In this document: piece after piece, positions 30,689-50,940 of the stretch | How positions within the stretch are numbered: the stretch's first letter is position 1 | Layout: every line of letters begins with the position of its first letter | NCBI GenBank assembly: GCA_002686365.1 | Contig: NZBZ01000004.1 | Coordinates: 27,079-91,078 of the forward strand | DNA length: 64,000 nt | Direction of reading: 5' to 3' | Source: a bacterium | Lineage (GTDB): Bacteria; Patescibacteriota; Minisyncoccia; UBA6257; GWB1-50-10 | Position numbers and translations under genes: made by a program | The notes under the pieces: generated by a model | Database searches by the model: none | What the model was told of the DNA's origin: nothing | What the model saw: only the letters and a program-made list of their open reading frames with translations

Positions 30689-31975
30689 ATGGCAGAAAAA
30701 AAGACAGTGCCGGCAGAGAATCAGCAGGCAGCTCCGGCTGCTCCTGTGAAGGATGCTGGAGGGCTTAGAGCTGAGATAGAGAAGCTTCTTTTAGAGAAGG
30801 AGGATATTTCTATTATTCGGCTTGTTGATGCCCTTGTTCAGTATGCGAATCTTGCGCGCGCGTCAGATATTCATATTGATCCTGATGCTAAACGTCTTCG
30901 TGTTAGGTTTCGTATTGATGGGGTGATGCATGATGAGTTTGAATTTTTGAAAGATATCCAGTCAGAGGTTATTACCCGTATTAAGGTAGTTTCCGGACTT
31001 CGTACAGATGAACATCAGGCAGCGCAGGACGGCAGGTTTCGAATGCAGGTTGAGGGAATGGGAGATATTGATGTTAGAGTTTCTATTGCTCCTACGTATT
31101 ATGGTGAGAATTGTGTGATGCGGGTTCTTGCGGGCCAGTCGGAGAGTTTTGCGGTTGAGACTTTAGGTCTTTCGCAGAGCAATTTAAAAAAAGTTCTTCA
31201 GGCAATTGGAAGGCCGTATGGGATGATTCTTGTTACTGGTCCTACTGGGTCTGGAAAGACGACTACTCTTTACTCGATTCTTCGGAGGCTGAATACTCCG
31301 GAGGTTTCTATTATTACAATTGAGGGTCCTATTGAGTATTCGATTGCAGGCATTGATCAGATTCCTGTCCATAAAGATACAAATCTTACGTTTGCCGCAG
31401 GACTTAGATTTATTTTGAGGCAGGATCCTGATGTGATTATGGTAGGGGAGATTAGGGATGAGGAGACGGCAAATATTGCGGTGAATGCCGCAATGACAGG
31501 ACATTTGCTTTTGTCTACTCTTCATACTAATGATGCGGCGACTACTCTTCCCCGGCTTTTGGATATGAAGATTGAGCCGTTTCTTATTGCTTCGACAATG
31601 AATATTGCTATAAATCAGCGTTTAGTCAGGAAGATATGCCCTGATTGCCGTAAGGAGAAGAAAATCGGCGATTTGGAGCTTTCAAATATTAAAGAGATTG
31701 TTTCTGAAGAAATTCTGCAGGGAAGGCAGTCGTTTTATGTTGGGGAGGGATGTGATTTGTGCGGAGGGTCTGGATATCGTGGGAGAATTGGAATTCATGA
31801 GGTTTTGGAGGTTAGTGAGGAGATTCGGAAGCTTATTATGCAGCGCGCTGATGCGGATCAGATAAAACAGGCGTCTGTCCGCGGAGGCATGAGGACGATA
31901 TTGGAAGATGGATTTGAGAAGGCGCTTCAGGGCATTACTACGATTGAAGAGGTTCTTAGGGTTTCACGCGAATAA
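30689..31975 (+). CDS. GspE/PilB-family type IV pilus ATPase, short paralogue (no N-terminal MshEN/GspE_N extension)
   Basis: Walker A GPTGSGKTTTLYS, Asp box, His box, C-terminal tetracysteine CPDC...CDLCGGSGYRGR; 428 aa. Confidence 0.8.
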   Translation: MAEKKTVPAENQQAAPAAPVKDAGGLRAEIEKLLLEKEDISIIRLVDALVQYANLARASDIHIDPDAKRLRVRFRIDGVMHDEFEFLKDIQSEVITRIKVVSGLRTDEHQAAQDGRFRMQVEGMGDIDVRVSIAPTYYGENCVMRVLAGQSESFAVETLGLSQSNLKKVLQAIGRPYGMILVTGPTGSGKTTTLYSILRRLNTPEVSIITIEGPIEYSIAGIDQIPVHKDTNLTFAAGLRFILRQDPDVIMVGEIRDEETANIAVNAAMTGHLLLSTLHTNDAATTLPRLLDMKIEPFLIASTMNIAINQRLVRKICPDCRKEKKIGDLELSNIKEIVSEEILQGRQSFYVGEGCDLCGGSGYRGRIGIHEVLEVSEEIRKLIMQRADADQIKQASVRGGMRTILEDGFEKALQGITTIEEVLRVSRE

Positions 31976-31977
31976 TT

Positions 31978-32337
31978 ATGAAGGATATTGTACTTTTTCA
32001 GTCAGTTCCATTGCAGGAGAGGATAAACTTTGCCCGTCATTTGCATCTTATGATTAAGACGGGCCTTTCTTTGGTTGATGGGCTGCGTCTGATTCAGGAT
32101 CAGACTCCATCCAAGTCTTTAAAGAGGATTGTTACGGATCTTATTAAAGAGATAAATAATGGACACTTCCTTTCTGAGGGACTTAAGCGATATCGTCGTG
32201 TATTTGGCGAGTTTTTTGTGAGTGTGGTTGAGATTGGAGAGAAGAGTGGGAATTTATCAGAAAGCTTGCTTCATCTTGCTGTTGAGCTTCAGAAGAAGAA
32301 GGAGCTGCGGCAGAGGTTCGATGTCGTCCAGCCCTAA
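31978..32337 (+). pseudogene. pilC: PilC/GspF N-terminal fragment truncated by GC-rich islet E
   Basis: 119 aa matching the cytoplasmic N-terminus of GspF (compare with the intact copy at 44316); composition switches to GC-rich at about 32300, where the reading frame terminates. Confidence 0.6.
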
Positions 32338-32799
32338 TCGCTCGGCGAGCTGAGAAAGCTCGTTGTCTCCAAAGAGACTGTATTCTCGCTCCCGCATGGA
32401 AAGAAGTCTGTCAAAGAAGCGGCTGGGCTTCGTATCATACTCCGCACGCTCACCAAGCTCGTCACGGATCCGCTCGCGTTCAACATCGACATTCTCAGCT
32501 GGTATTCGGCCGCGCAGCAAAAGCCGATCGAACTTCCTCTTCACGAAGCTATCGACAAACGCACTCGCGGCCAGAAGCATGAAACAGGAGGCGCCGATGT
32601 AGTCTACCCACGTATCCCCACGCGCTTGCAGTTCTTCCGGAATCGAGTAGAACCGCACCTCGTGAAACCATGCTCGAAGCCTGTCTATCCCATAGGGGAC
32701 GAGAAAGAAGATGGCGTAGATGAGGACGGGCAGACTGAGACCACACATTGTGGCTCTGATTCTCCACAATGCTTGCTTTGCACGCTCAAACTCCCCCAT
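32257..32799 (-). CDS. Hypothetical membrane protein (GC-rich islet E)
   Basis: ATG with AGGAGG SD 9 nt upstream; one TM helix; its C-terminus is read through former pilC sequence. Confidence 0.4.
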   Translation of the reverse strand: MGEFERAKQALWRIRATMCGLSLPVLIYAIFFLVPYGIDRLRAWFHEVRFYSIPEELQARGDTWVDYIGASCFMLLAASAFVDSFVKRKFDRLLLRGRIPAENVDVERERIRDELGERAEYDTKPSRFFDRLLSMREREYSLFGDNELSQLAERLGLDDIEPLPQLLLLLKLNSKMKQAF

Positions 32800-32967
32800 C
32801 TCCCGACCTCCTATTGACAAAAATCTACGTATGTGTTACAGTAGATTCTTATTGTGGTAGGATGACATCTGCTCATTAAAAACTGAGGTCTCCCTCCTTC
32901 ACAGGGAGAAGCGCCGTAGCACGTTGGTTTGGGCGCTTCTCCACTGTTTGAAGAAGGGAGATAGACC

Positions 32968-33330
32968 GTGCTTATAGAAGTGCCTGATGACTTCGGCGAA
33001 CGTCTCATCAATCTGTTGGACAAGCTCGACGCCAAATCGTATGCGCGCATAGCAACCGCTCTGCACGCACAACGTCTACTCCGCCAGTTGAAGGTCAGCG
33101 ACGCACCCGGCTCCGTTTGCCGGAAGTGTTGGAAACAGGTTGATCCCATCGTCTGCGCGTTCACAAGAGATGACCACTCTGACGAGGCGGCGGTTTCTGT
33201 GACCGATGCTGTGGAGGAGATTCTCGACTGCATAAACTTCAGAGACGCCGCTGACACTCCAATCCGCGTGGATCTGGTCATCACGCCACAGCATGAGATC
33301 GCCGAGCCACAGCCCGGTCTTACAACGTAG
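32968..33330 (+). CDS. Hypothetical protein (GC-rich islet E)
   Basis: GTG start with AAGGGAG SD. Confidence 0.35.
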   Translation: MLIEVPDDFGERLINLLDKLDAKSYARIATALHAQRLLRQLKVSDAPGSVCRKCWKQVDPIVCAFTRDDHSDEAAVSVTDAVEEILDCINFRDAADTPIRVDLVITPQHEIAEPQPGLTT

Positions 33331-33472
33331 TGTAATGCGATACGCTACCAGCGTAAACGAGCCGCCCTTTGGGTGGCTTTTCCATTCCTTCCCCACCGTC
33401 TCGTCATTACAGCCCGTCCCACTTCACGTATACTCGCCTTACCCCAAACCAGACCAACATGAGGGAAGGCAC

Positions 33473-33889
33473 ATGACTCCGAACGCCGGGCGTTCACAAC
33501 CGTCCTCAGAATCAGGCGACGTCGGATCCTCAAACGCCTTCATAGACTCTTGGTACGAGAAACTAGGGCAGCAAGTCCCCCGCCCCGTGCTGGACGACGC
33601 CCTAAACGCCATGTTTGATGGCGGCCACGAGGCCCGGATCTCCTTGTATGAGTTTCTAGATTCGGACGAATTACAGGCCAGCGAGAAAGCTGCACGCATG
33701 TGGTCGTTCTACGTCGAGTGGGCCAAAGTGCAGCGCGCTCTCAAACTCTTGCAGCTCGACAGGGCAGAAGACGCTCAGGAACTGCTAGATGATCCGCTCG
33801 TCTTTCAAGGGCGTGTGCCAGACTTACAGCTTCAGGTTGATAGCTACACCTTAGAAAGGATTTCGTTTATGGAAGTAGGTCAGTTCTAG
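33473..33889 (+). CDS. Hypothetical protein (GC-rich islet E)
   Basis: ATG with GAGGGAAGG SD; the ORF track extends upstream to 33293. Confidence 0.3.
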   Translation: MTPNAGRSQPSSESGDVGSSNAFIDSWYEKLGQQVPRPVLDDALNAMFDGGHEARISLYEFLDSDELQASEKAARMWSFYVEWAKVQRALKLLQLDRAEDAQELLDDPLVFQGRVPDLQLQVDSYTLERISFMEVGQF

Positions 33890-33958
33890 CTTTTAGCTTC
33901 ATTTCCGCCAGAGGCGGATCCGCCTTGGGCGGAAGCTATTAGCTTCATTAGCTTATAG
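33886..33958. repeat. AGCTTTTAGCTTCATT...AGCTTCATTAGCTTATAG repeat unit interrupted by two small GC hairpins (TCCGCCAGAGGCGGA, TCCGCCTTGGGCGGA)
   Basis: Member of the repeat family also at 42489, 45532, 46727, 48496, 52577 and 54403. Confidence 0.7.
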
Positions 33959-33962: not shown

Positions 33963-33977
33963 TATAATAGATGTATG
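33963..33977 (+). promoter_or_regulatory. TATAAT box 6 nt upstream of the ATG of the pilin gene (leaderless-type promoter)
   Basis: TTTTATAATAGATGTATG module conserved at 45570 and 46766. Confidence 0.5.
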
Positions 33978-34463
33978 TTTTTGTTTTTCCTAAAAGCTAA
34001 AAGCTATAAGCTAAAAGCTGAAAGGGGTTTTACTCTTTTAGAGGTGCTTGTCGTGTTAGCTATTATTGCTGTGGTTGGGGCAGTGGTTTTGATGCTGATA
34101 AATCCTTCAGCACGATTTGCAAAATCGAGAAATAATGAGCGAGCTGCGGATTTGAATGTGATTTTGAATGCAGTAAGTCAGAACATTGCTGATAACAAGG
34201 GGAGTTTTTCCTGCAGTGCTGGGTACTTGCCTTCTACTTCGACGCGGATGGCTGTTGGGTTGGGAGATTATGATATTGTTCCATGTCTTTTTCCAACATA
34301 TCTTGTTGTTGTGCCTTATGATCCGAATGGGGAGGGTGTATTTTATACAAGTACTTCGAGTTATGATTCGGGTTATGACATTTTTCAGGATTCAGTTACG
34401 GGTAGGGTTATAATAGAGGCGCCGCTTGCAGAGCTTAGTGAGACGATTTCTGCGACGAGGTAG
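33975..34463 (+). CDS. Type IV prepilin-like protein with 18-aa leader (MFLFFLKAKSYKLKAERG then FTLLEV)
   Basis: Class III signal: Gly then F-T-L-L-E-V plus hydrophobic helix; the leader is encoded by the AAAGCTATAAGCT repeat. Confidence 0.75.
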   Translation: MFLFFLKAKSYKLKAERGFTLLEVLVVLAIIAVVGAVVLMLINPSARFAKSRNNERAADLNVILNAVSQNIADNKGSFSCSAGYLPSTSTRMAVGLGDYDIVPCLFPTYLVVVPYDPNGEGVFYTSTSSYDSGYDIFQDSVTGRVIIEAPLAELSETISATR

Positions 34464-40614: not shown

Positions 40615-40645
40615 AAAAACAGCCAATAGGCTGTTTTTGTGTTTT
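40615..40645 (+). terminator. Rho-independent terminator AACAGCC-AATA-GGCTGTT then TTTTGTGTTTTT
   Basis: Read directly at the end of the rRNA trailer. Confidence 0.6.
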
Positions 40646-40701
40646 TCTTGGCATTGTCTTTGTGTGGAGCTTCAATAGTAAAAGGTGATATACTACTGGT
40701 A

Positions 40702-41284: not shown

Positions 41285-41863
41285 ATGAAAAAAGGATTTA
41301 CACTTATTGAGCTTCTTGTTGTAATCGCGATTCTTGCTGTACTTGCGACAGCAGTTGTTTTGGTTTTGAACCCTGCAGAGCTTATTAGGCAGAGCCGTGA
41401 TGCAACGAGAATATCTGATTTAGAGGCGATAAATACTGCTTTGGGATTCTATTTGGCTGATGTTGATCCTTCTAATATTAGTCTTGCTGAAGCATCAAGT
41501 GATGTTTGTCCAGCAACTGCGCGATGCACTTTTGCAAGCAGTACTTCTCCACTTGGAGGTAGGACGTGTGTTGTGCCTAGCGCAGCAGACTTATCTACGG
41601 TAGGTGGCGCTGGATGGATTGACGTGAATCTTGGAGCAATTACAGGAGGTTCCCCGCTTTCGTCACTTCCAATTGATCCTCGTAATACTGCTCCGCATCT
41701 TTTCTACTCATATGCGTGCGATAGCGCGAGTACATGGTATGAGATTAATGCGGATATGGAGAGCATAAAGTATAGTTCAGGCTCTTCAAATGTAGAGGCT
41801 AATGATGGAGGAGATAATGATAATGTGTATGAGGTTGGAAATGATCCGGGACTTGATCTGTAG
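41285..41863 (+). CDS. Type IV pilin (short leader MKKG then FTLIELLVVIAILAVLA), candidate major pilin
   Basis: Canonical class III signal and N-terminal hydrophobic helix; 192 aa. Confidence 0.8.
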   Translation: MKKGFTLIELLVVIAILAVLATAVVLVLNPAELIRQSRDATRISDLEAINTALGFYLADVDPSNISLAEASSDVCPATARCTFASSTSPLGGRTCVVPSAADLSTVGGAGWIDVNLGAITGGSPLSSLPIDPRNTAPHLFYSYACDSASTWYEINADMESIKYSSGSSNVEANDGGDNDNVYEVGNDPGLDL

Positions 41864-41898: not shown

Positions 41899-42519
41899 TT
41901 GGTCGGCGTTTTCTTTTCTAGTAAAATAGAGCTTATGACTTTATCCTTTCTAACGGGGTTTACCATTTTGTTTTTGACCGTAGGTCTGTTTTTTCAGATA
42001 TTTTTGAGAGGCAGGATTCGGTTTTTTCAGTATCTATTTTTTATAGCTCTTTTGGGAATTTTGGGGGTTTATCTGTATCTTGTGTATGGACAGTATGTGC
42101 TCTGGCGTGATTCAGGTCCTCCGTCCAGCTTTTTTGTTCCTCCGCATAGAAGCGCTTTGTATGTTTTTGGGTATCATTTTACTCGTTTTGGTCTGCAGTA
42201 TCTTATTTCTTTAGGGGTTTCGATTTTGTTTTTCTTTCTTTCTTTGCGTCTGAATCAAAGATTTGGAGAGAGATTTTTTGAAAGAGAAGAGTTGTGGCTT
42301 GGGGCATTTTCTATTTTTCTTTTAGGGAATCCAGTATGGAATTACGCATGGATTTATTACCTTTTACTTCTAGGTCTTTTGTCAGTCTTGGGGTCTCTTT
42401 TTGCGCAGTATGTTTTTCGTATTCGTGAGAGATTTCCTTTGTACTGGTTATGGATTCCGTGTGCTCTTGGAGTTATACTTATACAAAAGCTTATAGCTTA
42501 TGGCTTCATTAGCTTTTAG
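41899..42519 (+). CDS. Polytopic membrane protein, unknown function
   Basis: 5-6 TM helices; its C-terminus KLIAYGFISF is encoded by the AGCTTATAGCTTATGGCTTCATTAGCTTTTAG repeat. Confidence 0.4.
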   Translation: MVGVFFSSKIELMTLSFLTGFTILFLTVGLFFQIFLRGRIRFFQYLFFIALLGILGVYLYLVYGQYVLWRDSGPPSSFFVPPHRSALYVFGYHFTRFGLQYLISLGVSILFFFLSLRLNQRFGERFFEREELWLGAFSIFLLGNPVWNYAWIYYLLLLGLLSVLGSLFAQYVFRIRERFPLYWLWIPCALGVILIQKLIAYGFISF

Positions 42520-42590: not shown

Positions 42591-44315
42591 ATGATTCCAT
42601 TACCTCCAGATAAAATTAAGAATCTTCTTGTTCAGGAGGGGCTTGTTGATGTTGAAAAGTTTGATGCTGCACTTGGGGAGGCGCAGCGTAAGCGTCAGGA
42701 AGTTGTTGAGGTTCTTATCTCACAGGGACTCTTGAACAAGGATTATTTTTATACTCTTCTTGCAAAGCATTTGGGAGTAGATCGGATACGGATTCGTACT
42801 TCTGATATTGATGAGAAGGTTCTTCGGATGCTTCCGGAGGATGTAGCTCGTGAGAGGCGGGCTATTGTTTTTGCCAGAGAGACAGATGGTACGTTTGATG
42901 TGGCAATGGAGAATCCTACAGATCTTGAGACTACTGATTTTTTGTCTTTGAAGCTTGATGGATCGGTGAAGGCATACTTGGCAACAGATGAGGATTTGAA
43001 TAGGGGATTTTCTTTGTATGAGGAGAAGTTAACTCAGGACTTTAAGAAAATTATTGAGGATAGTATTCGGGAGTCTTTGAGGTCAAAGGTTCAGGGTGAG
43101 GAGGATCTTGAACAGGCTGCTGAAGATCTTCCTATTGTTGCGATTGTTGATAATTTGCTTGCTTATTCGGTATCTTCTAGGGCTTCTGATATCCATGTGG
43201 AGATTTTAGATGATGCGGTTCTTGTTCGATTTCGTATTGATGGCGTTCTCCATGAGATTATTCGTATGCCTAAAGAGATTCATCCTGCAGTTATTGCCAG
43301 GATTAAGATTCTTTCCGGACTTCGGGTTGATGAACATTCGAAGCCGCAGGATGGGCGTTTTCGGCATAAGATAGGAGATGAGAATATTGATATTCGTGTT
43401 TCCGCGCTCCCAACGTTTTATGGAGAGAAGATTGTCATGCGTCTTTTGAAGGGCGCGGACCGGCCTCTTTCTTTAGCTGAACTTGGAATTGTTGATGATC
43501 GTATGCGTGATGTAATTGTAGATGCGATTTCGAAGAGCTATGGAATGTTTTTGGTGTGTGGTCCTACTGGGTCTGGAAAGACGACGACGCTTTATTCAAT
43601 TCTTAATATGTTGAATCGTCCTGAGGTGAATATTGTCACAGTTGAGGATCCAATTGAGTATGATATGCGGTTTGTGAATCAGGTTCAGGTGAATGCTGCT
43701 GCTGGTATTACGTTTGCCGGCGGTCTTCGGTCAATCTTGAGGCAGGATCCTAATATTATTATGGTTGGTGAGGTTCGGGATGCTGACACTGCAAGCATTG
43801 CTGTGCAGTCCGCGCTTACCGGGCATCTTGTTCTTTCTAGTTTGCATACGAATGATGCTCCTACTGCAATTCCACGGCTTTTTGATATGAAACTTCCTCC
43901 ATTTTTGATTGCTGCGGTTTTGAACGCGGTATTTGCTCAGCGTCTTACTCGGAGGATCCATCTTCAGTGCATAGAGTCGTATACGCCGGATTCTGCGACG
44001 CTTGATAGTATCTCTGATCAGTTAAAGGCATTGAATGTGGATCCCGGAGCAATAAAGATGCCTACTACGTTTTATCGCGGGAAGGGGTGTGATGCGTGCA
44101 GCGGCACTGGGTATTTGGGGCGAGTTGGTATTTTTGAGGTCTTGCATATTACGGGGGCGCTTCGAAAGCTTATTGTTAGTCCTCAATTTTCTCTTGACGC
44201 GCTTCGGCAGGCTGCTCGTAAGGAGGGAATGGTGACGATGTTTGAAGATGGTTTGCAGAAGGTTGAGCGTGGTGTTACTACAATTGATGAGGTGTTTAGA
44301 GTAATTCGTGAATAA
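42591..44315 (+). CDS. pilB: Type IV pilus assembly ATPase PilB (GspE family, full length)
   Basis: N-terminal GspE_N-like domain, Walker A GPTGSGKTTTLYS, Walker B/Asp box, tetracysteine CDACSGTGYLGR; 574 aa. Confidence 0.9.
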   Translation: MIPLPPDKIKNLLVQEGLVDVEKFDAALGEAQRKRQEVVEVLISQGLLNKDYFYTLLAKHLGVDRIRIRTSDIDEKVLRMLPEDVARERRAIVFARETDGTFDVAMENPTDLETTDFLSLKLDGSVKAYLATDEDLNRGFSLYEEKLTQDFKKIIEDSIRESLRSKVQGEEDLEQAAEDLPIVAIVDNLLAYSVSSRASDIHVEILDDAVLVRFRIDGVLHEIIRMPKEIHPAVIARIKILSGLRVDEHSKPQDGRFRHKIGDENIDIRVSALPTFYGEKIVMRLLKGADRPLSLAELGIVDDRMRDVIVDAISKSYGMFLVCGPTGSGKTTTLYSILNMLNRPEVNIVTVEDPIEYDMRFVNQVQVNAAAGITFAGGLRSILRQDPNIIMVGEVRDADTASIAVQSALTGHLVLSSLHTNDAPTAIPRLFDMKLPPFLIAAVLNAVFAQRLTRRIHLQCIESYTPDSATLDSISDQLKALNVDPGAIKMPTTFYRGKGCDACSGTGYLGRVGIFEVLHITGALRKLIVSPQFSLDALRQAARKEGMVTMFEDGLQKVERGVTTIDEVFRVIRE

Positions 44316-45530
44316 ATGCGGTATAAATACACAGCGACACAATCTGATGGGAAGATTGCAGATGGTGAGATGGATGCTGTAGATGTTCCTCAGGTATTGC
44401 AGTTTATCGCCTCCAGAGGGTTGAAGCCTATCAGTGTTCAGAAGACTGGAGGTTTTTGGCAGAAGCTGAAGCATGTTCAGGTTTTTGGCGGCAGTATTAC
44501 GCCCATAGATCAGATTTTTATATCAAAGTATTTGGGGCTTATGCTTAAGATTGGCACGAGTCTTTTGCAGGCAATTAATATTCTTCTTGAAGACTTTAAG
44601 AAGCCTGCTGTGAGAGAGTTTCTTGTTCGGGTGCGTACTAGTCTTGAGCAGGGTCAGCCCTTCCACCTCGTTTTTCAGAATTATCCTAAGGTGTTTAGTT
44701 CTGTGTATGTGAATCTTGTAAAAGCCGGAGAGTCATCTGGAAATCTTGATAGTACATTTGAGAATTTGAGCGAATCTCTTGCTAAAGAGAAGGATTTGAA
44801 AGATCAGGTGAGAGGAGCTCTTGTCTATCCTATTATTCTGCTTGGCGCTTCATTTCTTATTCTTGTGTTTTTGATAACATTTGCTCTTCCTCGAATTTCT
44901 CAGGTTTTTACTGATGGAGGATTTGATCCTCCCCTTTTTTCTCGTGTTGTATTTAGCATAGGTCTTTTGTTTGGCAAGATTGGCTGGATTGTTGTAGTTG
45001 GTTTTATTTTGGCCATTATTCTCGCGTTTTATTTCTACCGCGCCTCTATTTTGTTTAAGCGGTTTGTTATTAGAACTCTTTCCGGGCTTCCTATGATTCG
45101 GGATGTTGTGCGAAAGATTGCGCTCCAGCGATTTTCTGCTACGCTTTCGTCTCTTATTCGTGCTGGCATGCCTTTTACTGAATCGCTTGAAATTACGGCC
45201 GATGCTGTCGGAAATACAGAGCTTAAAGACGCTCTTCTTCGAATTTCTCGAGAGGGAATTTCTAAGGGTCTTACTGTTGGAGAGGCGTTCAAACGAGAAA
45301 CTTTTTTCCCGCAGACTGTGATAAATCTTATTTCTGTTTCAGAGAGAGCCGGTCATATTGAAGAGGTGCTTGACGCTCTTTCGGATTTTTACGCAAAGGA
45401 AGTTTCTAGTTCTTTGAAGACGGTAGTGTCATTTCTTGAGCCTGTTCTTCTTATGTTTGTTGGCGGTATTGTGGGAGTTATTGCTTTATCTGTGATTATT
45501 CCGGTGTATCAGCTTACGTCGCAGTTTTAA
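44316..45530 (+). CDS. pilC: Type IV pilus platform protein PilC (GspF family)
   Basis: Two GspF repeats, three TM segments; start overlaps the pilB stop (TAAATG); 404 aa. Confidence 0.9.
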   Translation: MRYKYTATQSDGKIADGEMDAVDVPQVLQFIASRGLKPISVQKTGGFWQKLKHVQVFGGSITPIDQIFISKYLGLMLKIGTSLLQAINILLEDFKKPAVREFLVRVRTSLEQGQPFHLVFQNYPKVFSSVYVNLVKAGESSGNLDSTFENLSESLAKEKDLKDQVRGALVYPIILLGASFLILVFLITFALPRISQVFTDGGFDPPLFSRVVFSIGLLFGKIGWIVVVGFILAIILAFYFYRASILFKRFVIRTLSGLPMIRDVVRKIALQRFSATLSSLIRAGMPFTESLEITADAVGNTELKDALLRISREGISKGLTVGEAFKRETFFPQTVINLISVSERAGHIEEVLDALSDFYAKEVSSSLKTVVSFLEPVLLMFVGGIVGVIALSVIIPVYQLTSQF

Positions 45531-45581: not shown

Positions 45582-46724
45582 ATGTTTTTATCTTTCTTGA
45601 AAGTTATAAAGACTTGCTTGCCGGTAGGCGGGGCAGGTAGGTATAAGTTACGAACTTGTAAGGGCTTTACTCTTGTTGAGGTGATGATTGCTCTTGCTGT
45701 GCTTGTAGCCCTTTCAACTTTTGGGTTTACAAGCTTGTTTGGTATTCGTGAGTCCAGGAGTGTTCGAAGCGCTGCCCAGGGAATTAATTCTGTACTGCAG
45801 GATGCCAGAGAGCGTTCTCTTACTCAGGCAGACGGCATGAGCTGGGGAGTGCGTTTTCTTCATCCTTCAGAGGATGTTTATGAGTATCAGGAGTTTTTTG
45901 ATGCTCCGTTTGGAGTACACAAGGCGCATTTTTTGTCGAACGGCGTGCAGTTTTCTGATTTGCCTTTAGGAGATACATTTGATGTTGCGTTTCAGTCGGT
46001 GAACGGAATGTCGTCGTTGGATAAAATTATCTCAGTTGCCAGCTCTGGAAAGGGAGGAGTTGTAGGAGATGTAATTCTTCGTTCTGTTGGTTTTATTTCT
46101 CCTCGTCTTGAGAAGGGAGTTGCGGGGTATTGGCATTTTGATCAAGAGAATGGTTCAGTGGCCTATGATGCGAGTGGTCTTGAAGGAAATGGAAGTATTT
46201 CCGGCGCAGTGTGGGATGGGCCATGTAGGGCTGGGGGATGCCTTCGATTTGATGGGGCAGATGATTATGTTTCTGGATCTTTTCCTCACACATTTTCTTC
46301 TTTTTCTATTTTGGGATGGGTTCGATTGGATGGAGATGGTGGTAATAAGGGGGCTCTTTGGTCTGGGTATGATGGTTCTTTGGGGCGGATATACGCACGA
46401 GTTTTGGGCTCATCCCGGAAGCCAAGCTTTTATACGAATCCTGGCGGCGGTGAGGGGACGACTGCTGCTATGACAGCTCTTTCAGATGGATGGCATCATC
46501 TTGCGTATGTATATGATGGTATCTCAAAGAAGATTTATATAGATGGCGTTGAGGATGTTTCAGAGGATAGCCCTGATCTTTTATTTCCTCTTGATTCTTT
46601 TGAGATTGGGAGGAGTGAGCAGGATGGGGCTAATGTTCTTCGGGGATGGATTGATGAGCCTCGTGTGTACGACAGAGCGCTTTCCTCAGAAGAGATTTGG
46701 GATCGGTATAATGATTTACGTTAA
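45582..46724 (+). CDS. Prepilin-type protein (pseudopilin) with C-terminal LamG/concanavalin-like lectin domain
   Basis: Leader MFLSFLKVIKTCLPVGGAGRYKLRTCKG then FTLVEVMIALAVL; LamG-like motifs LRFDGADDYV...GWHHLAYVYDG...KIYIDGV...RVYDRALS. Confidence 0.7.
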   Translation: MFLSFLKVIKTCLPVGGAGRYKLRTCKGFTLVEVMIALAVLVALSTFGFTSLFGIRESRSVRSAAQGINSVLQDARERSLTQADGMSWGVRFLHPSEDVYEYQEFFDAPFGVHKAHFLSNGVQFSDLPLGDTFDVAFQSVNGMSSLDKIISVASSGKGGVVGDVILRSVGFISPRLEKGVAGYWHFDQENGSVAYDASGLEGNGSISGAVWDGPCRAGGCLRFDGADDYVSGSFPHTFSSFSILGWVRLDGDGGNKGALWSGYDGSLGRIYARVLGSSRKPSFYTNPGGGEGTTAAMTALSDGWHHLAYVYDGISKKIYIDGVEDVSEDSPDLLFPLDSFEIGRSEQDGANVLRGWIDEPRVYDRALSSEEIWDRYNDLR

Positions 46725-46762: not shown

Positions 46763-46779
46763 TTTTATAATAAATGTGT

Positions 46780-48042
46780 ATGTTTTCGTTTTTTCTAAAA
46801 GCTATTACCTATAAGCTAAAAGCTAGGTCCGGTCAGTCTCTTATTGAGATTATTGTTGGGCTTGCGATTGGCGCGGTTCTTATTGGCGCTGCTGTGGTAG
46901 GTATTACATTTGTGCTTCGTTCTGGATCTTTGAATCAGCAGTCTCGAACTGCCTCAGGAGTTAGCCGGGCTCTTCTTCAAGAGGTACGGTCTGTATCGGA
47001 TTCAAGCTGGCTGGATGTTTATAATCTTGATAGAGGAATTTCTCATTATATTGTTGCAAGCGGTACTTCTCTTTCTGCGTTTGAAGGGAAGGAGGGTGTT
47101 GTAGTTAACGCGCCTCAGGACGAGCTTCAAGCTCATTGGAATTTTGATGAGTCAGTTGAGAATATTGTTCACAATTCCGTTGCTTCAGGTGTTCGCGGAG
47201 ATATTATCGGTACAATGCCTGTTTTTTCGTGCCGTGTGGGGACGTGTCGTTCGTTTGAGGGCTCTCAATATATGTTTTTTGGAGATGATTCGTCTTTAGA
47301 TCTTCAGGCTGATTTTTCAGTGGCATTGTGGATGTATCCGGATGCTGTTCCTGTTTCTAATGTCGGGCTTGTGAGTAAGGAGGGGTCTCCGTATGGCTAT
47401 GGCATTACATATGACTATGATGTGGATGGGCAGGTTCGATTTTTTGTTCGGGATGAGGGAAGCAGTGTGCAGGCGCCAATGCCGCCTCAGGGCTGGCATC
47501 ATGTTGTTGGAGTATTTGGCAGCTCCCCAAGTTCGTTTCTTAATCTTTACGTAGATGGTCTTCTTGCGGCGACAAGCACATTAGGATTTTCTGCGTCGGG
47601 CGCTTCTGGAGATTTTTTTGTTGGTCGGCATAGTTCCGGTTTTTTTGATGGAATGATTGATGATGTTCGCGTGTATTCTAGGGCGTTTGACGCGAATGAT
47701 GTTTGGTCTCTTTATAATGGAAGAGTTTTTGTTCGTTCTTTTTATGTGGAGGACGTGTTTCGGGATTCTGTTGGAGAAATTGTGTCTTCAGGAGGAAGTC
47801 TTGATCCATCTACTTTGAAAGTTACGATTGTTGTTGAGTGGAATCCTGTTGGATCTGCGGCAGCGCGTCATGAGGTGGAGGATTATTTTACTCGATGGAG
47901 GAATGATGTATTTCATCAGAGTGATTGGTCAGAGGGGCCGGAGTCTTTAGTTCCTATTCCAGAGCCGGGAGGCGGATTTTCTAATTCATCGAATATTCGA
48001 TTTTCTCCCGGGTCTATTCAGATTGATGAGTTAAATGAGTGA
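46780..48042 (+). CDS. Prepilin-type protein (pseudopilin) with LamG-like lectin domain, second paralogue
   Basis: Leader MFSFFLKAITYKLKARSG then QSLIEIIVGLAIGAVL; LamG-like motifs SFEGSQYMFFGDD...GWHHVVGVF...LYVDGL...VRVYSRAF; ATG 46780 preferred (7 nt after TATAAT) over ORF-track 46774. Confidence 0.7.
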   Translation: MFSFFLKAITYKLKARSGQSLIEIIVGLAIGAVLIGAAVVGITFVLRSGSLNQQSRTASGVSRALLQEVRSVSDSSWLDVYNLDRGISHYIVASGTSLSAFEGKEGVVVNAPQDELQAHWNFDESVENIVHNSVASGVRGDIIGTMPVFSCRVGTCRSFEGSQYMFFGDDSSLDLQADFSVALWMYPDAVPVSNVGLVSKEGSPYGYGITYDYDVDGQVRFFVRDEGSSVQAPMPPQGWHHVVGVFGSSPSSFLNLYVDGLLAATSTLGFSASGASGDFFVGRHSSGFFDGMIDDVRVYSRAFDANDVWSLYNGRVFVRSFYVEDVFRDSVGEIVSSGGSLDPSTLKVTIVVEWNPVGSAAARHEVEDYFTRWRNDVFHQSDWSEGPESLVPIPEPGGGFSNSSNIRFSPGSIQIDELNE

Positions 48043-48061: not shown

Positions 48062-48493
48062 ATGGTAAAGGTTCAGCATTTTACAGAGAATTTTGAGCAG
48101 AATGTTCAGCATGCTGGGGAGCGTGTTCAGGAGTATAAAGAGAGTCCTGATTTTCGAGAGGCGCCAAAACGGGAAGTTGTGAAGAAGTCTCTTCGGCAAG
48201 AGAAGGCGCCTTTGCCTCCACCGCCCAGTGCTTCTCAGGATGAGGACGATGATGTAAAGAAGGAGAAGGATTCTCCGGAGAATATGAATTCATTTCTTCC
48301 TGATTATTTCAATGGTGGAGATGCAGAGGGTATGGGTGAGGCAGTAGGACGACTTGCTGAGACAGCTCTTCATGGGAACCTTGAGAAGTCTCTTAAGGAT
48401 GCGCGAAAGCTTACTCCTTTTCTTGAAGATGCGTTTCATGATTCGTTGGTTGATAAGTTATTGCCGGAGATGAAGAGGCGGGGAATTATTTGA
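48062..48493 (+). CDS. Acidic hypothetical protein
   Basis: 143 aa, Glu/Asp/Lys-rich. Confidence 0.4.
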   Translation: MVKVQHFTENFEQNVQHAGERVQEYKESPDFREAPKREVVKKSLRQEKAPLPPPPSASQDEDDDVKKEKDSPENMNSFLPDYFNGGDAEGMGEAVGRLAETALHGNLEKSLKDARKLTPFLEDAFHDSLVDKLLPEMKRRGII

Positions 48494-48495
48494 CG

Positions 48496-48531
48496 AGCTT
48501 TTAGCTTCTAGCTTCATTAGCTTTTAGGGGA
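48496..48531. repeat. GAGCTTTTAGCTTCTAGCTTCATTAGCTTTTAG repeat
   Basis: Family member. Confidence 0.75.
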
Positions 48532-48541
48532 GAATCTCTTT

Positions 48542-48574
48542 TAGCTATAAGCTATAAGCTATAAGCTATAAGCT
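48542..48574. repeat. (AGCTATA)x5 heptanucleotide tandem repeat ending 5 nt before the ATG of the ATPase gene
   Basis: Read directly. Confidence 0.85.
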
Positions 48575-48579
48575 ATTTT

Positions 48580-50940
48580 ATGTTAGTAGGTACACTTTTT
48601 GGAGCTGTTTTACTTCTAGTTGTTGGGGTGGTAGCGTTTTTTTTCTTTCGTAAATCGCAGGGAAATACACTTGTTGAGAAACTTAGTCTTGAGCTTTTTC
48701 TTGTTCGGCTTCCATATACTTCTTCTGAAGGTAAGGATTTAAAGGAAGAGATAGGTTTTTTTGAACAGCTTTTGAGTTCTCTCTCGTCTTTTAAAAAACC
48801 TTTTGTGTTTGAAGTTGCTGTTCCTCATGTGGGGGAGGAGATTCATTTTTATGCTGCTGTTCCTTTGCATCTTGGAGAGACGTTTTCTCGGCAGGTTCAT
48901 GCTGTTTGGGCTGGGGCAGAGGTAGAAAAGGCTTCTGACTATACAATTTTTAGTCCTCATGGAGTATACGAGGGCGCGTGGGTGAAGCAGAGGGATAAGT
49001 TTATTCTTCCGGTCCGCACTTATCAGGATGTAGACGGAGATCCTTTTTCTTCAATTGTTGGCGCGCTTTCAAAGATTCAGGAGATTGGAGAGGGGGCTGT
49101 GATTCAGGTTCTTGTACAACCTGCGTCTCGAGCTTTGCGTACGAAGATTTTGAGCGCGCTTCGTAGACTGCAGAAGGGGGAGGAGTTTAAGAAGGTGATT
49201 CGGTCTTCGTTTTCTTTTGAGAGTATTACGGAAGCAGTTGTTCCTAAAGACAATACAAAACAGAAAGAGGAGGGCTTTCGGGAGAAGACAGTTGAGGATG
49301 TTGCGGTTCAGGCGCTTCAGAAGAAGGCCTCGACTCCTTTATTTCGTGTGAATATTCGGCTTCTGGCGTCCGCCCCCACAAAGGAGAAGGCAGAGATTCT
49401 TCTCTGGAGTTTGACCTCTGGATTTTCTCAGTTTGGAGCTCCAGACCGAAATGATTTGAAGATCGTGAGGGTGCGGTCAAATAAGGATTTTGCCCACAAG
49501 TTTTCTTTTCGGGAGTTTTCAAAGAATCAGGAGATGATTTTGAATTCGGAAGAGCTTACGAGCATGTTTCATTTCACCACTCCATTTTCTGAGATTCCTA
49601 AGGTGAAGTCCTTAAAGGCTAAACAGTCAGCTCCTCCTGCAGAGCTTCCAAAAGAGGGCGTTCTTATTGGAGAGAGTGCGTATAGAGGGGAGAAGAAAGA
49701 GGTGCGTGTTGCTAACGATGATCGCAGGCGGCATGTCTATCTTATTGGGCAGACAGGAACTGGGAAGTCTAATCTTATTACGAATATGGCTGCCTATGAT
49801 GTAGCTCACGGCAAGGGAGTTGCGGTTATTGATCCTCATGGGGATTTAGTGGAGGCGGTTTTGAGGCAGGTGCCTGAATCCCGTGCTCAGGATGTTGTTG
49901 TATTTGATCCTTCAGACCTTGAGCGTCCTTTGGGGCTTAATATGATTGAGTATAATCTTGATAGACCGGAGGAGAAGACGTTTATTGTAAATGAGATGGT
50001 TAGTATTTTTGATAAGCTTTATGACTTGAAGGCTACTGGCGGGCCTATGTTTGAGCAGTATATGCGAAATGCTCTCCTGCTTTTAATGGAGGATTCGGCA
50101 AATGAGCCCGCGACCCTTATGGAGGTTGCGCGAATATTTACTGATAAGGGATATCGGGATAGGAAGCTTCAGCGTATTAAAAATCCAACAGTTCAGGATT
50201 TTTGGCAGAAGGAGGCAGAGAAGGCCGGAGGAGAGGCTTCGCTTCAAAATATTACTCCGTACATTACTTCTAAGTTCAATACATTTACTGCAAATGATTA
50301 TATGCGTGTAATTATTGGGCAGGAGAGGTCTTCATTTAATTTTCGGCAGATTATGGATGAGGGAAAGATACTTCTTATTAATCTTTCTAAAGGAAGAATT
50401 GGAGATATAAATGCGAATCTGCTTGGAATGATCTTTGTAGGTAAGATTCTTATGGCTGCGCTCTCTCGGGTTGATATTAAGGAGGATGAGAGGAGAGATT
50501 TTAATTTGTATATTGATGAGTTTCAGAATTTCACAACAGATTCCATTGCTACAATTCTTTCAGAAGCTCGGAAGTATCGTTTGAATCTTGTGATTGCACA
50601 TCAGTTTATTGCGCAGTTGTCGGATACGATACGGGACGCAGTATTTGGAAATGTTGGATCATTTGTTTCGTTTCGCGTTGGTGTGCAGGATACGGAGACT
50701 TTGATAAAGGAATTTGCTCCTGAATTTGATGAGCATGATCTTTCTAATATTGATAATTTTAATGCGTATGTGCGGCTTTTGGTGGATAATCAGACAACGA
50801 AGCCGTTTAATATTCGTACGATTCCGAGTGGAAAGGGAAGTGACGAGATTGCGGAGCGTCTTCGGGGCATATCTCAAGAGAAGCATGGAAGGCCGAGAGA
50901 TGAAGTTGAAGATAGTATTTATCGACGTCTACGCGATTGA
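48580..50940 (+). CDS. Membrane-anchored TraD/VirD4/FtsK-HerA-like P-loop ATPase (type IV coupling protein-like)
   Basis: N-terminal TM helix, Walker A LIGQTGTGKSN, Walker B NLYIDEFQNF, C-terminal TraD/TraG-like region; 786 aa. Confidence 0.7.
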   Translation: MLVGTLFGAVLLLVVGVVAFFFFRKSQGNTLVEKLSLELFLVRLPYTSSEGKDLKEEIGFFEQLLSSLSSFKKPFVFEVAVPHVGEEIHFYAAVPLHLGETFSRQVHAVWAGAEVEKASDYTIFSPHGVYEGAWVKQRDKFILPVRTYQDVDGDPFSSIVGALSKIQEIGEGAVIQVLVQPASRALRTKILSALRRLQKGEEFKKVIRSSFSFESITEAVVPKDNTKQKEEGFREKTVEDVAVQALQKKASTPLFRVNIRLLASAPTKEKAEILLWSLTSGFSQFGAPDRNDLKIVRVRSNKDFAHKFSFREFSKNQEMILNSEELTSMFHFTTPFSEIPKVKSLKAKQSAPPAELPKEGVLIGESAYRGEKKEVRVANDDRRRHVYLIGQTGTGKSNLITNMAAYDVAHGKGVAVIDPHGDLVEAVLRQVPESRAQDVVVFDPSDLERPLGLNMIEYNLDRPEEKTFIVNEMVSIFDKLYDLKATGGPMFEQYMRNALLLLMEDSANEPATLMEVARIFTDKGYRDRKLQRIKNPTVQDFWQKEAEKAGGEASLQNITPYITSKFNTFTANDYMRVIIGQERSSFNFRQIMDEGKILLINLSKGRIGDINANLLGMIFVGKILMAALSRVDIKEDERRDFNLYIDEFQNFTTDSIATILSEARKYRLNLVIAHQFIAQLSDTIRDAVFGNVGSFVSFRVGVQDTETLIKEFAPEFDEHDLSNIDNFNAYVRLLVDNQTTKPFNIRTIPSGKGSDEIAERLRGISQEKHGRPRDEVEDSIYRRLRD

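What the first reader, a model, noticed from the sequence alone, without database searches (positions are those of the whole stretch)
30689..50940. Type IV pilus-like machine with two PilB paralogues, LamG-lectin pseudopilins and a TraD/VirD4-like ATPase
The cluster holds a full PilB (574 aa) and a short PilB lacking the N-terminal domain, an intact PilC, one short-leader pilin and three long-leader pilins (two fused to LamG/concanavalin-like lectin domains, which would be candidate tip adhesins), and a membrane-anchored P-loop ATPase of the FtsK/TraD/VirD4 type. No PilD, PilM/N/O or PilT is recognisable in the window. The combination of pilus, lectin pilins and a DNA-translocase-like ATPase suggests an attachment and DNA-uptake apparatus of the kind proposed for episymbiotic ultra-small bacteria. 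The T4CP-like ATPase adjacent to the pilins is the least expected part.
Basis: partly seen in the sequence, partly recalled or inferred. Interest (0 to 1): 0.55.

Follow-up and report, generated by a model that had tools for sequence, protein, structure and literature searches.

The report
Pilus operon beside a domesticated coupling ATPase
In this marine ultra-small (Patescibacteria) bacterium, an intact type IV pilus operon with two lectin-tipped pilins lies next to a widely conserved ATPase derived from a conjugation coupling protein. A second pilus system nearby is broken, the kinds of parts are already known, and a working link between the pilus and the ATPase is not shown.

Summary
But this is not one cluster.

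- **Locus A (30689-34463):** a decayed second pilus system. Its PilC is cut to 119 aa, and about 3 kb of minor-pilin genes are replaced by a 1.6-kb GC-rich island of orphan ORFs.
- **Between the loci:** about 6.8 kb of housekeeping genes and the 16S rRNA.
- **Locus B (40639-48042):** a conserved operon of response regulator, major pilin, unknown membrane protein, PilB, PilC and two LamG pilins.
- **The 786-aa ATPase:** a true relative of coupling proteins (T4CPs) from Gram-positive and actinobacterial conjugative plasmids (25% identity over 736 aa). In those plasmids the gene sits next to a relaxase. Its N-terminal domain (Pfam DUF8128) has the fold of the VirB4 N-domain.

In Patescibacteria the ATPase is chromosomal and 54-76% identical across species. 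No T4SS or relaxase family recurs among its neighbours. A 143-aa protein of unknown function lies directly upstream in 66 of 74 loci.

PilB/PilC lie upstream of the ATPase in only 9 of 44 species and a LamG pilin in 14 of 49, so the pilus adjacency is specific to one lineage. Orphan T4CPs in Patescibacteria, and lectin pilins in other bacteria, are already published. This is a new member of known kinds, and a DNA-uptake role is possible but unsupported.

The parts
30689..31975 (+). Short PilB/GspE-type ATPase (428 aa) of a second pilus system. It lacks the N-terminal MshEN/N1 domain and keeps the CxxC...CxxC zinc motif.
   Evidence: T2SSE E 1.9e-120. GspE 504 bits against PilT family 180 bits. 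49.5% identical to the long PilB core. Orthologues of 395-436 aa occur in about 30 metagenome loci.
31978..32337 (+). Remnant of PilC2 (119 aa, first T2SSF domain only).
   Evidence: T2SSF E 1.1e-18, profile positions 1-97 of 125. tblastn with the intact PilC finds no significant match (E 1.5) beyond about 32396. Orthologous loci carry a PilC2 of mostly 350-400 aa (range 347-511).
32340..33890 (.). GC-rich island (GC 0.52-0.58 against 0.41-0.46 in the flanks) that replaces the rest of PilC2 and the minor-pilin genes. Its ORFs have no relatives.
   Evidence: Composition. No Pfam, PADLOC or Rfam hit and no plasmid DNA match. The 198-aa ORF matches only itself among 1.84 billion representatives. 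The same sequence is in a second contig record, L085, and the TARA scaffold L086 ends inside the island at about 32821.
33975..34463 (+). Pilin (162 aa), orthologue of the terminal major-type pilin of the second system.
   Evidence: N_methyl E 3e-8. Orthologues lie 3.8-5.3 kb after the PilC2 start in at least 14 loci, against 2.0 kb here.
40639..41163 (+). Single-domain response regulator at the head of the pilus operon.
   Evidence: Response_reg E 1.3e-22. Found upstream of the pilin/PilB genes in relatives.
41285..41863 (+). Major-type pilin (192 aa) with short leader MKKG|FTLIE.
   Evidence: N_methyl E 1.5e-8. Conserved at this position. A terminator-like hairpin follows at 41884-41914.
41899..42519 (+). 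Conserved 5-TM membrane protein of unknown family between the pilin and PilB. It is not a recognisable prepilin peptidase.
   Evidence: No Pfam, NCBIfam or PADLOC hit. Orthologues at the same position in 8 loci. Conserved motifs include LVPP, FFExEE and LGNP, with no GxGD or paired Asp.
42591..44315 (+). PilB assembly ATPase (574 aa) with N-terminal MshEN domain.
   Evidence: T2SSE E 5.9e-119 and MshEN E 1.6e-12. TIGR02538 PilB 529 bits, full length but below the equivalog cut-off.
44316..45530 (+). PilC platform protein (404 aa), intact.
   Evidence: T2SSF E 1.5e-50 in two stretches. GspF and PilC models align over the full length.
45582..46724 (+). Modular minor pilin LamG-A (380 aa): G|FTLVE pilin module plus a Laminin_G_3 domain at residues 224-372.
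   Evidence: Laminin_G_3 E 4.5e-22 and N_methyl E 2e-6. Orthologues of about 350-375 aa carry G|FTLIE.
46774..48042 (+). Modular minor pilin LamG-B (422 aa): G|QSLIE pilin module, Laminin_G_3 at residues 162-310, and an uncharacterised C-terminal region of about 110 aa.
   Evidence: Laminin_G_3 E 1.9e-26 and N_methyl E 7.3e-5. Orthologues conserve G|QSL(I/V)E. This is the pilin that most often stays beside the p143-ATPase pair.
48062..48493 (+). p143: small cytoplasmic protein of unknown family and near-constant partner of the ATPase. It has an N-terminal helix, an acidic low-complexity middle, an LPxY motif and a conserved C-terminal motif PF(I/V)EDAFHDALxDKLxPELKKRG.
   Evidence: No Pfam, NCBIfam or PADLOC hit. 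Only hypothetical homologues. Directly upstream on the same strand in 66 of 74 loci and linked in 71 of 74. Absent from the plasmid T4CP loci.
48580..50940 (+). Membrane-anchored T4CP-type ATPase (786 aa). Layout: N-terminal TM helix (residues 2-35); DUF8128 domain with a VirB4-N-domain-like fold (about 36-345); RecA-type NTPase domain with an inserted all-helical domain (about 465-595).
   Evidence: Pfam and NCBIfam hits. Invariant Walker A GQTGTGK and DEFQN in 66 sequences. AF2 pLDDT 86. Foldseek hits to VirB4/TrwK, TrwB, HerA and Cagbeta. Full-length plasmid T4CP homologues next to relaxases.
48496..48574 (+). AGCTWWW-heptad hairpin repeat in the p143-ATPase spacer. Other copies lie at 33889-34019, 42488-42585, 45534-45566, 46730-46824, 52578-52605 and 54406-54430.
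   Evidence: 17 heptad matches against 0.12 expected, and 7 core matches against 0.84 expected. Predicted hairpins have z-scores from -2.6 to -4.6. Among the 166 loci fetched by then, the motif is otherwise seen only in this organism's own contigs plus a single match in L036.

Best explanation
The span holds three separable things.

(1) Locus B is a working type IV pilus operon. Shown: the gene content and its conservation. Inferred from family knowledge: the PilB hexamer drives PilC to lift processed pilins out of the membrane into a filament of the 192-aa pilin; the two LamG pilins prime assembly and sit at the tip, presenting lectin domains that bind glycans on a host cell or particle; the response regulator and possibly the MshEN domain control assembly. 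The peptidase, and any retraction ATPase, must be encoded outside the window.

(2) Locus A is the wreck of a second, Com/T2SS-like pseudopilus system. A GC-rich insertion removed two thirds of PilC2 and four minor pilins. Only the short ATPase and the terminal pilin survive.

(3) p143 plus the 786-aa ATPase is an independent two-gene module fixed in the chromosome. It is a coupling protein of the long monoderm-plasmid type that has lost its relaxase and T4SS context. Inferred mechanism: it is anchored by one TM helix and forms an ATP-driven hexameric ring at the membrane. That ring recruits and pushes a polymer substrate (DNA or unfolded protein), with p143 as its adaptor or regulator, in the way CagZ, TraM or the DotL adaptors serve other T4CPs. 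Its position beside the pilus genes is inherited synteny in one Paceibacteria subclade and does not prove a shared machine.
For: Pilus operon: HMM hits. The same gene order (response regulator, pilin, membrane protein, PilB, PilC, LamG-A, LamG-B) is found in 9-13 related species. Experimental precedents for lectin pilins are S. sanguinis PilC (PMC9934059) and TM7x (PMC11623550).

Decayed locus A: orthologous loci have the short PilB, a full PilC2, four pilin-like genes and the pilin162 orthologue. The window keeps only 119 aa of PilC2, followed by a GC-rich orphan island.

ATPase module: 6618 homologues, the best 120 being 56-76% identical over the full length. p143 is directly upstream in 66 of 74 loci. 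Neighbours are otherwise PMT_2, GalT, GT2, GtrA, TIM, PGK, FtsW, YceG, PBP2, L21 and YchF. It is as conserved as PilC and FtsW and more conserved than TIM and GalT. Walker motifs are invariant. It is 25% identical over 736 aa (E 1e-47) to a B. subtilis plasmid protein that sits beside a replication-relaxation gene plus TcpD, TcpE and VirB4-like genes, and the same holds on an Embleya plasmid. Fold matches: TrwB TM-score 0.65 on the C-terminal half, and the VirB4 N-domain E 2e-7 with a clean gap to the next hit. Published background: 5,713 VirD4-type T4CPs in 2,918 Patescibacteria genomes, only 148 near virB4, with exaptation suggested (PMC12102498).
Against: The substrate and direction of transport are pure inference. 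The p143-ATPase contact was not modelled. In this genome, LamG-B, p143 and the ATPase are separated by only 19 and 86 bp on one strand, and the ATPase spacer carries the same repeat as the pilin promoters. Co-transcription with the pilus genes is therefore likely here. A LamG pilin stays beside the pair in several species that lack PilB/PilC nearby, which hints at more than chance. Loss of function in locus A is inferred from gene content. The short PilB and pilin162 are intact ORFs and could work through the PilC of locus B.
Confidence: 0.6

Rival explanations
1. One integrated attachment and DNA-uptake machine. The lectin-tipped pilus binds the host and captures DNA, and the T4CP-type ATPase with p143 pulls the DNA across the membrane. 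This would be a bacterial counterpart of the archaeal Ups-pilus/Ced pair.
For: Tight same-strand spacing from 41285 to 50940, and a shared AGCT repeat before PilB, both LamG pilins and the ATPase. A LamG pilin lies within 5 kb upstream of the ATPase in 14 of 49 loci. Pilin or PilB genes lie downstream in other arrangements in L023, L039, L040, L048 and L080. T4CPs are DNA translocases in their home systems. T4P is needed for Ced DNA import in Sulfolobales (stated in PMC12102498). There are weak CedB and CedD hits.
Against: PilB/PilC are within 9 kb in only 9 of 44 loci, and all of those are the closest relatives. A class-III-signal ORF within 6 kb on either side occurs in 19 of 41 loci, which is roughly the background expected from my rough, unmeasured guess of pilin-gene density in these genomes. 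No ComEC, ComEA or DprA gene was seen in the window. The CedB and CedD hits cover the P-loop only. The AGCT repeat is specific to this genome. The t4cp homologue of S. epibionticum is reported to be non-essential while T4P is essential (PMC12102498), though I did not verify that it belongs to the same subfamily.
Confidence: 0.2
2. The ATPase serves cell division or envelope growth. It would act as an FtsK-like chromosome or septum translocase, or as a motor for exporting envelope components. This would explain why it is core and sits among FtsW, YceG, PBP2 and glycosylation genes.
For: Recurrent neighbours are FtsW, YceG/MltG, PBP2, PMT_2, GtrA and GT2. Conservation is at housekeeping level. 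It belongs to the same superfamily as FtsK.
Against: There is no FtsK_SpoIIIE Pfam hit for this protein. The closest full-length relatives are plasmid T4CPs, not FtsK. The neighbours are a conserved syntenic block rather than a functional operon. A real FtsK may exist elsewhere in the genome; I could not test this.
Confidence: 0.1
3. It is a remnant of an integrated conjugative element or part of an anti-phage system (HerA or MADS type), and has nothing to do with core biology.
For: Plasmid T4CP homology. PADLOC mad8 E 8e-16 and weak HerA hits.
Against: It sits at the same syntenic chromosomal position among housekeeping genes in many of the 81 species, with 54-76% identity and invariant catalytic motifs. 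No integrase, relaxase, other T4SS or mad family recurs among its neighbours. The PADLOC matches cover only the NTPase domain.
Confidence: 0.04

Closest known systems
Type IV pili of monoderm-like bacteria with modular lectin pilins (Streptococcus sanguinis PilC, PDB 7OA7/7OA8; Nanosynbacter lyticus TM7x T4P-1/T4P-2 with lectin-like minor pilins)
   Same: PilB and PilC motor and platform, class III signal pilins, and minor pilins carrying a ConA/LamG-type beta-sandwich that is proposed or shown to bind glycans at the pilus tip (PMC9934059; PMC11623550). As in TM7x, this genome carries two T4P-type systems.
   Different: There is no detectable sequence similarity to S. sanguinis PilC. Two tandem LamG pilins have distinct N-termini (G|F and G|Q). 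No PilT or PilD was found in the window, and PilM/N/O were not specifically searched for. A conserved unknown 5-TM protein sits between the pilin and PilB. The second system is broken here.
Long coupling proteins (T4CP, VirD4 type) of monoderm conjugative plasmids, for example the DUF87 protein beside the replication-relaxation gene on Bacillus subtilis and Embleya plasmids; pLS20 p48 is a 786-aa putative VirD4
   Same: Homology over both the N-domain and the NTPase domain (25% identity over 736 aa, E 1e-47). Similar length and an N-terminal membrane anchor (PMC8557374).
   Different: The Patescibacteria protein is chromosomal and syntenic with housekeeping genes. No relaxase, VirB4, VirB6 or Tcp family recurs among its neighbours. 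It is paired instead with a lineage-specific 143-aa protein that is absent from the plasmid loci.
Orphan VirD4-type T4CP homologues of Patescibacteria (Microb Genom 2025, PMC12102498)
   Same: Most likely the same proteins: abundant T4CP homologues not encoded near virB4, with exaptation suggested.
   Different: In the passages I searched, the paper does not mention the p143 partner, the DUF8128/VirB4-like N-domain or the local link to T4P minor pilins. I could not confirm from its data that this subfamily was among those it counted.
VirB4 (TrwK of R388) and TrwB
   Same: The N-domain fold matches the VirB4 N-domain (E 2e-7, TM-score about 0.5). The C-terminal half matches TrwB (TM-score 0.65) and includes an inserted helical domain.
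   Different: No VirB4 sequence model gives a convincing hit; the only one is a weak NCBIfam match (NF045975 VirB4_plasma, E 0.0034, about 35 residues around the P-loop). By sequence, only the P-loop region aligns to TrwB and DotL.
Archaeal Ups pili plus the Ced DNA-import system
   Same: A conceptual parallel: a type IV pilus that makes cell contact, combined with a VirB4/HerA-type membrane ATPase that imports DNA (as cited in PMC12102498).
   Different: Only weak P-loop hits to CedB and CedD. No CedA-like, VirB6-like or VirB2-like genes are present here.

Membership tests
Type IV pilus / type IV filament machinery | PilB/GspE-family assembly ATPase | tested here: met
   T2SSE E 5.9e-119 plus MshEN. 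PilB and GspE equivalog models align over the full length but score below their cut-offs.
Type IV pilus / type IV filament machinery | PilC/GspF platform protein with two T2SSF domains | tested here: met
   44316-45530: T2SSF E 1.5e-50 in two stretches. The locus A copy is a 119-aa fragment.
Type IV pilus / type IV filament machinery | Pilins with a class III signal peptide (Gly at -1, Glu at +5, hydrophobic helix) | tested here: met
   Four ORFs with N_methyl and G|(F/Q)(T/S)L(I/L/V)E.
Type IV pilus / type IV filament machinery | Prepilin peptidase (PilD, Peptidase_A24) | tested here: not met
   None found among the window ORFs scanned. The conserved 5-TM protein lacks the paired Asp and GxGD motifs. 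The rest of the genome was not available.
Type IV pilus / type IV filament machinery | Retraction ATPase PilT and alignment proteins PilM/N/O | tested here: not met
   Only two T2SSE paralogues are in the window and both are of PilB/GspE type, so PilT is absent from the window. No annotated window gene is PilM-, PilN- or PilO-like, but I ran no specific search for those three. They may lie elsewhere in the genome.
Modular lectin pilins (S. sanguinis PilC type) | Pilin module fused to a ConA-like/LamG beta-sandwich | tested here: met
   N_methyl plus Laminin_G_3 in both proteins, well above the cut-off of 27.6 bits (79.3 and 93.5 bits).
Modular lectin pilins (S. sanguinis PilC type) | Glycan binding and tip location | not testable with these tools
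   Needs glycan arrays and pilus imaging. Inferred only by analogy (PMC9934059).
Type IV coupling protein (VirD4/TraD/TrwB) | FtsK/HerA-superfamily NTPase domain with intact Walker A and B motifs | tested here: met
   GQTGTGK and DEFQN are invariant in 66 sequences. T4SS-DNA_transf 39.1 bits against a cut-off of 20.1. TrwB fold E 1e-12, TM-score 0.65.
Type IV coupling protein (VirD4/TraD/TrwB) | Inserted all-alpha domain | tested here: met
   TrwB_AAD_bind 29.8 bits against a cut-off of 20.5. The AF2 model has a helical block at about residues 465-595 between core strands.
Type IV coupling protein (VirD4/TraD/TrwB) | N-terminal membrane anchor | tested here: met
   A hydrophobic helix at residues 2-35 followed by RK. 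There is one TM helix, not the usual two.
Type IV coupling protein (VirD4/TraD/TrwB) | Encoded with a relaxase and/or a T4SS (VirB4, VirB6) that it serves | tested here: not met
   Met by its plasmid homologues. In 81 Patescibacteria loci, none of the recurrent neighbour families annotated is a relaxase or T4SS protein. I ran no dedicated relaxase HMM search.
VirB4 | VirB4 N-terminal domain plus C-terminal NTPase, recognised by VirB4 sequence models | tested here: inconclusive
   The fold of residues 36-350 matches the TrwK N-domain specifically: 14 hits at E 2e-7 to 5.5e-5, and the next hit at 2e-3. The only VirB4 sequence model hit is a weak P-loop match, NF045975 VirB4_plasma E 0.0034. In plasmids a separate VirB4-like gene coexists with the homologue.
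FtsK/SpoIIIE DNA translocase | FtsK_SpoIIIE motor domain | tested here: not met
   No FtsK_SpoIIIE hit for the 786-aa protein at E <= 0.01.

The most novel reading that the evidence does not exclude
The p143 plus DUF8128 ATPase pair is a chromosomally fixed motor derived from a coupling protein and found widely in Patescibacteria. It would work with the lectin-tipped type IV pilus to move DNA, or another host-derived polymer, across the membrane of these ultra-small episymbionts. This would be a bacterial counterpart of the archaeal Ups/Ced pair and a hybrid of type IV pilus and type IV secretion parts. A narrower variant: like VirB4 with VirB2, it extracts the bulky LamG pilins from the membrane.
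Probability: 0.15. Interest if true: 0.8.

Novelty: new member of a known kind. Interest (0 to 1): 0.36.

Why it matters
Patescibacteria depend on other cells, and how they attach and take up material is an open question. This locus gives a clean, conserved example in Paceibacteria of a pilus operon with two lectin pilins. That makes the pilins concrete candidates for host-glycan recognition outside the better-studied Saccharibacteria.

It also sharpens the puzzle of the abundant orphan coupling proteins in this group. This subfamily descends from long T4CPs of monoderm plasmids, carries a VirB4-like N-domain, is conserved at housekeeping level, and is nearly always paired with one small unknown protein. 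That defines a two-gene target for genetics.

The practical lesson for annotation is that adjacency to pilus genes in one genome is not evidence of a shared machine.

Tried and rejected
- **The 206-aa membrane protein as a divergent PilD.** Rejected: no Peptidase_A24 hit and no conserved Asp pair or GxGD motif.
- **The short PilB as PilT.** Rejected: it scores as GspE/PilB and keeps the tetracysteine motif.
- **The RF1-like gene as truncated by the rearrangement.** Rejected: the same short form of about 242-271 aa exists in other Paceibacteria.
- **The GC-rich islands as assembly chimeras or a shared mobile element.** Both flanks keep the synteny seen in relatives, and the same sequence is in a second contig record. 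The islands share no sequence with one another.
- **The AGCT hairpins as a conserved regulatory element linking the ATPase to the pili.** Rejected as general evidence: among the 166 loci fetched by then they are otherwise seen only in this organism's own contigs, plus a single match in L036.
- **A defence-system reading (HerA or MADS).** The matches cover the NTPase domain only.
- **A p143 counterpart in the plasmid T4CP loci.** None found.
- **Promoter and terminator scan.** Not above chance.
- **Profile search against PDB sequences.** It added only P-loop matches.

Full report
**Source and overall layout.** The window comes from a marine Patescibacteria population. The identical 786-aa ATPase gene lies on Tara Oceans contigs (ERR594345 k127_877497, 38 kb; TARA_SAMEA2619974 scaffold_1844), and p143 is in NCBI as hypothetical protein CL629_01270. 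The closest relatives by this ATPase are Jorgensenbacteria and other Paceibacteria. Background GC is 0.41-0.46.

**Checking the observation.**
- Short PilB 30689-31975: T2SSE E 1.9e-120, no MshEN domain.
- PilB 42591-44315: MshEN plus T2SSE.
- PilC 44316-45530: two T2SSF stretches.
- Pilins at 33975, 41285, 45582 and 46774: all carry N_methyl.
- The last two pilins: Laminin_G_3 at E 4.5e-22 and 1.9e-26.
- The 786-aa protein: T4SS-DNA_transf 39.1 bits, DUF87 33.2 bits and TrwB_AAD_bind 29.8 bits, all above the Pfam cut-offs.

NCBIfam agrees, although nothing reaches an equivalog cut-off. There is no third T2SSE paralogue, and the candidate membrane ORFs scanned gave no prepilin-peptidase hit; no PilM/N/O-specific search was run.

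**The span is two loci, not one cluster.** Between 34478 and 40640 lie an RF1-like gene, an SLT_2 transglycosylase, L25, L31, a GC-rich island and a complete 16S rRNA at 38823-40312.

**Locus A is a broken second system.** The short PilB is followed by only 119 aa of a PilC paralogue (T2SSF E 1.1e-18). A tblastn search with the intact PilC finds no significant match (E 1.5) beyond about 32396. From about 32340 to 33890, GC jumps to 0.52-0.58.

I fetched 80 metagenome loci with the short PilB as query. About 30 of them carry a true orthologue of 395-436 aa. Each of those is followed by a PilC2, mostly of 350-400 aa (range 347-511). In at least 14 of them the orthologue of the 162-aa pilin lies 3.8-5.3 kb after the PilC2 start. 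In L093 the intervening genes are four pilin-like proteins of 150, 506, 180 and 152 aa. In the window that distance is 2.0 kb.

So two thirds of PilC2 and all four minor pilins have been replaced. The replacing island has no Pfam, PADLOC or Rfam hit and no plasmid DNA match. Its 198-aa ORF matches only itself among 1.84 billion representative proteins. One TARA scaffold ends inside the island. The two PilBs are 49.5% identical over the core, and they belong to different systems.

**Locus B is a conserved operon.** The order response regulator, pilin, 5-TM protein, PilB, PilC, LamG-A, LamG-B recurs in L001, L004, L008, L010, L011, L021, L026, L050 and L067.
- The 5-TM protein has no family assignment and lacks peptidase motifs.
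- LamG-A orthologues carry G|FTLIE. LamG-B orthologues carry G|QSL(I/V)E.
- Lectin-bearing modular pilins have experimental precedent in S. sanguinis PilC. Lectin-like minor pilins and two T4P systems are described for the Saccharibacterium TM7x.

This part is therefore a new member of a known kind.

**The 'long leaders' come from a repeat.** The three long-leader pilins share an almost identical cassette: AGCTTCATTAGCTT, about 10 nt, TATAAT, then ATG 6 nt later (2-8 nt for LamG-B, depending on which ATG is used). This cassette is embedded in AGCTWWW heptad repeats. The complementary arm of those repeats encodes the FLKA..YKLKA leader motif. The elements fold into hairpins. They also precede PilB and the ATPase. 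Among the loci fetched by that point they are otherwise seen only in this organism's own contigs plus a single match in L036. Orthologous pilins have leaders of 2-29 aa with no such motif.

**The ATPase as a family.** It is very large: 6618 homologues, the best 120 being 56-76% identical over the full length, all carrying Pfam DUF8128 (PF26449) at the N-terminus. In 81 species-level loci, a homologue of the 143-aa ORF lies directly upstream on the same strand in 66 of the 74 loci with enough sequence, and is linked in 71 of 74.

By contrast, a LamG pilin is within 5 kb upstream in 14 of 49 loci. PilB/PilC are within 9 kb in 9 of 44, and all of those are the closest relatives. Elsewhere the neighbours are PMT_2 (35 loci), GalT, GT2, GtrA, TIM, PGK, FtsW, YceG, PBP2, L21 and YchF.

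Between the window and nine relatives, the ATPase is 54-71% identical. That is like PilC and FtsW, lower than RpoB, and higher than TIM and GalT. Walker A and B motifs are invariant.

**What kind of ATPase it is.** The AF2 model is confident (pLDDT 86). It shows one TM helix, an alpha/beta N-domain, and a RecA-type domain with an inserted helical block.
- Foldseek against PDB ranks full-length VirB4/TrwK first (E 1e-15). TrwB follows (E 1e-12, TM-score 0.65 on the C-terminal half), then HerA and Cagbeta.
- Modelled alone (pLDDT 88.5), the N-domain hits only VirB4 N-domains at E 2e-7 to 5.5e-5. The next hit is unrelated at 2e-3.
- By sequence, only the P-loop region aligns to TrwB and DotL.

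The decisive result was a tblastn search against plasmids. It found 599 records, mostly Bacillus, Streptomyces, Staphylococcus, Clostridium, haloarchaea and Sulfolobus, with matches over residues of about 61-786. BLASTP to a B. subtilis plasmid protein gives 25% identity over 736 aa, E 1e-47. In those plasmids the homologue sits beside a replication-relaxation family gene and TcpD, TcpE, PrgI and VirB4-like genes.

It is therefore the coupling protein of monoderm conjugation modules. Long T4CPs of this size are known, for example pLS20 p48 at 786 aa. The plasmid loci have no p143-like ORF.

**Relation to published work.** A 2025 survey counted 5,713 VirD4-type T4CPs in 2,918 Patescibacteria genomes, only 148 of them near virB4. 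It suggested exaptation and noted that the S. epibionticum homologue is not essential. The existence of such orphans is therefore known. In the passages I searched, the constant p143 partner, the VirB4-like N-domain and the local link to LamG pilins are not mentioned.

**Mechanism.** I commit to the following.
- Locus B builds a lectin-tipped pilus for attachment.
- Locus A is decayed.
- p143 plus the ATPase is an independent, domesticated coupling-protein module. It forms a membrane-anchored hexameric motor for a polymer substrate, with p143 as adaptor.

Shown: gene identities, synteny statistics, homology and folds. Inferred: hexamer formation, the substrate, the role of p143, tip location and glycan binding.

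The integrated DNA-uptake reading keeps about 0.2 probability. The reasons are the tight spacing in this genome and the recurrent LamG-B adjacency.

**Verdict.** This is a new member of known kinds, of moderate-to-low interest (0.36).

Noticed in passing
window 6106-7081, 8050-10637, 12829-14125, 26543-27142, 32340-33890, 37818-38651, 52599-53694: Seven or more short GC-rich islands (GC 0.51-0.60 against 0.43 background) are inserted between genes that are syntenic in relatives. Their ORFs have no family hits. Two tested ORFs (216 aa and 198 aa) match nothing but themselves in the 5.8-billion and 1.84-billion protein libraries. The islands share no sequence with one another. Their origin is unexplained.
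   Followed up: partly
window 37798-37817 and 38652-38671: A perfect 20-bp direct repeat (GTTTTTAGCTTGTTTGGCAA) brackets the 834-bp GC-rich island between L31 and the 16S rRNA promoter. It looks like a target-site or attachment-site duplication.
   Followed up: partly
window 33889-34019, 42488-42585, 45534-45566, 46730-46824, 48496-48574, 52578-52605, 54406-54430: Hairpin-forming repeats built of AGCTWWW heptads, specific to this genome among the loci compared. Three copies carry an identical TATAAT-6nt-ATG module that starts three pilin genes and suggests leaderless transcripts. Two copies abut GC-rich islands.
   Followed up: partly
window 34478-35260 (probable start 34517): A class-I release factor that lacks the whole N-terminal domain (PCRF profile begins at position 96). 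The same short form of about 242-271 aa occurs in other Paceibacteria loci (L038, L057, L061), so it is a lineage trait and not a truncation.
   Followed up: partly
window 38823-40312: A complete 16S rRNA gene with no 23S, 5S or tRNA gene anywhere in the 64-kb window, so the rRNA operon is unlinked.
   Followed up: no
L001-L083, about 2 kb upstream and 0-2 kb downstream of the ATPase: In many relatives the p143-ATPase pair is flanked by a divergently oriented PMT_2 (GT-C) glycosyltransferase (35 loci) and by GtrA, GT2 and GalT-like genes. This resembles a three-part surface-glycosylation set that might modify pilins or the envelope. Of these, the window keeps only the GalT-like gene.
   Followed up: partly
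L062 2349-3938: A 529-aa paralogue of the ATPase that matches only residues 345-778 (E 1e-80). It has no DUF8128 N-domain and lies 7.6 kb upstream of the full-length gene. At least this genome therefore carries both a long and a short T4CP-like form.
   Followed up: no
window 14165-14276 and 20690-20785: Two arrays of an 8-bp tandem unit (ATCGAGAT and variants), 6.5 kb apart. One lies upstream of a mechanosensitive-channel gene and one lies inside the PGA_cap gene region.
   Followed up: no
L087 and L088: In some relatives a long PilB (577 aa) lies immediately upstream of the short PilB, PilC2 and pilin operon. The two ATPase types can therefore be tandem in one locus.
   Followed up: no
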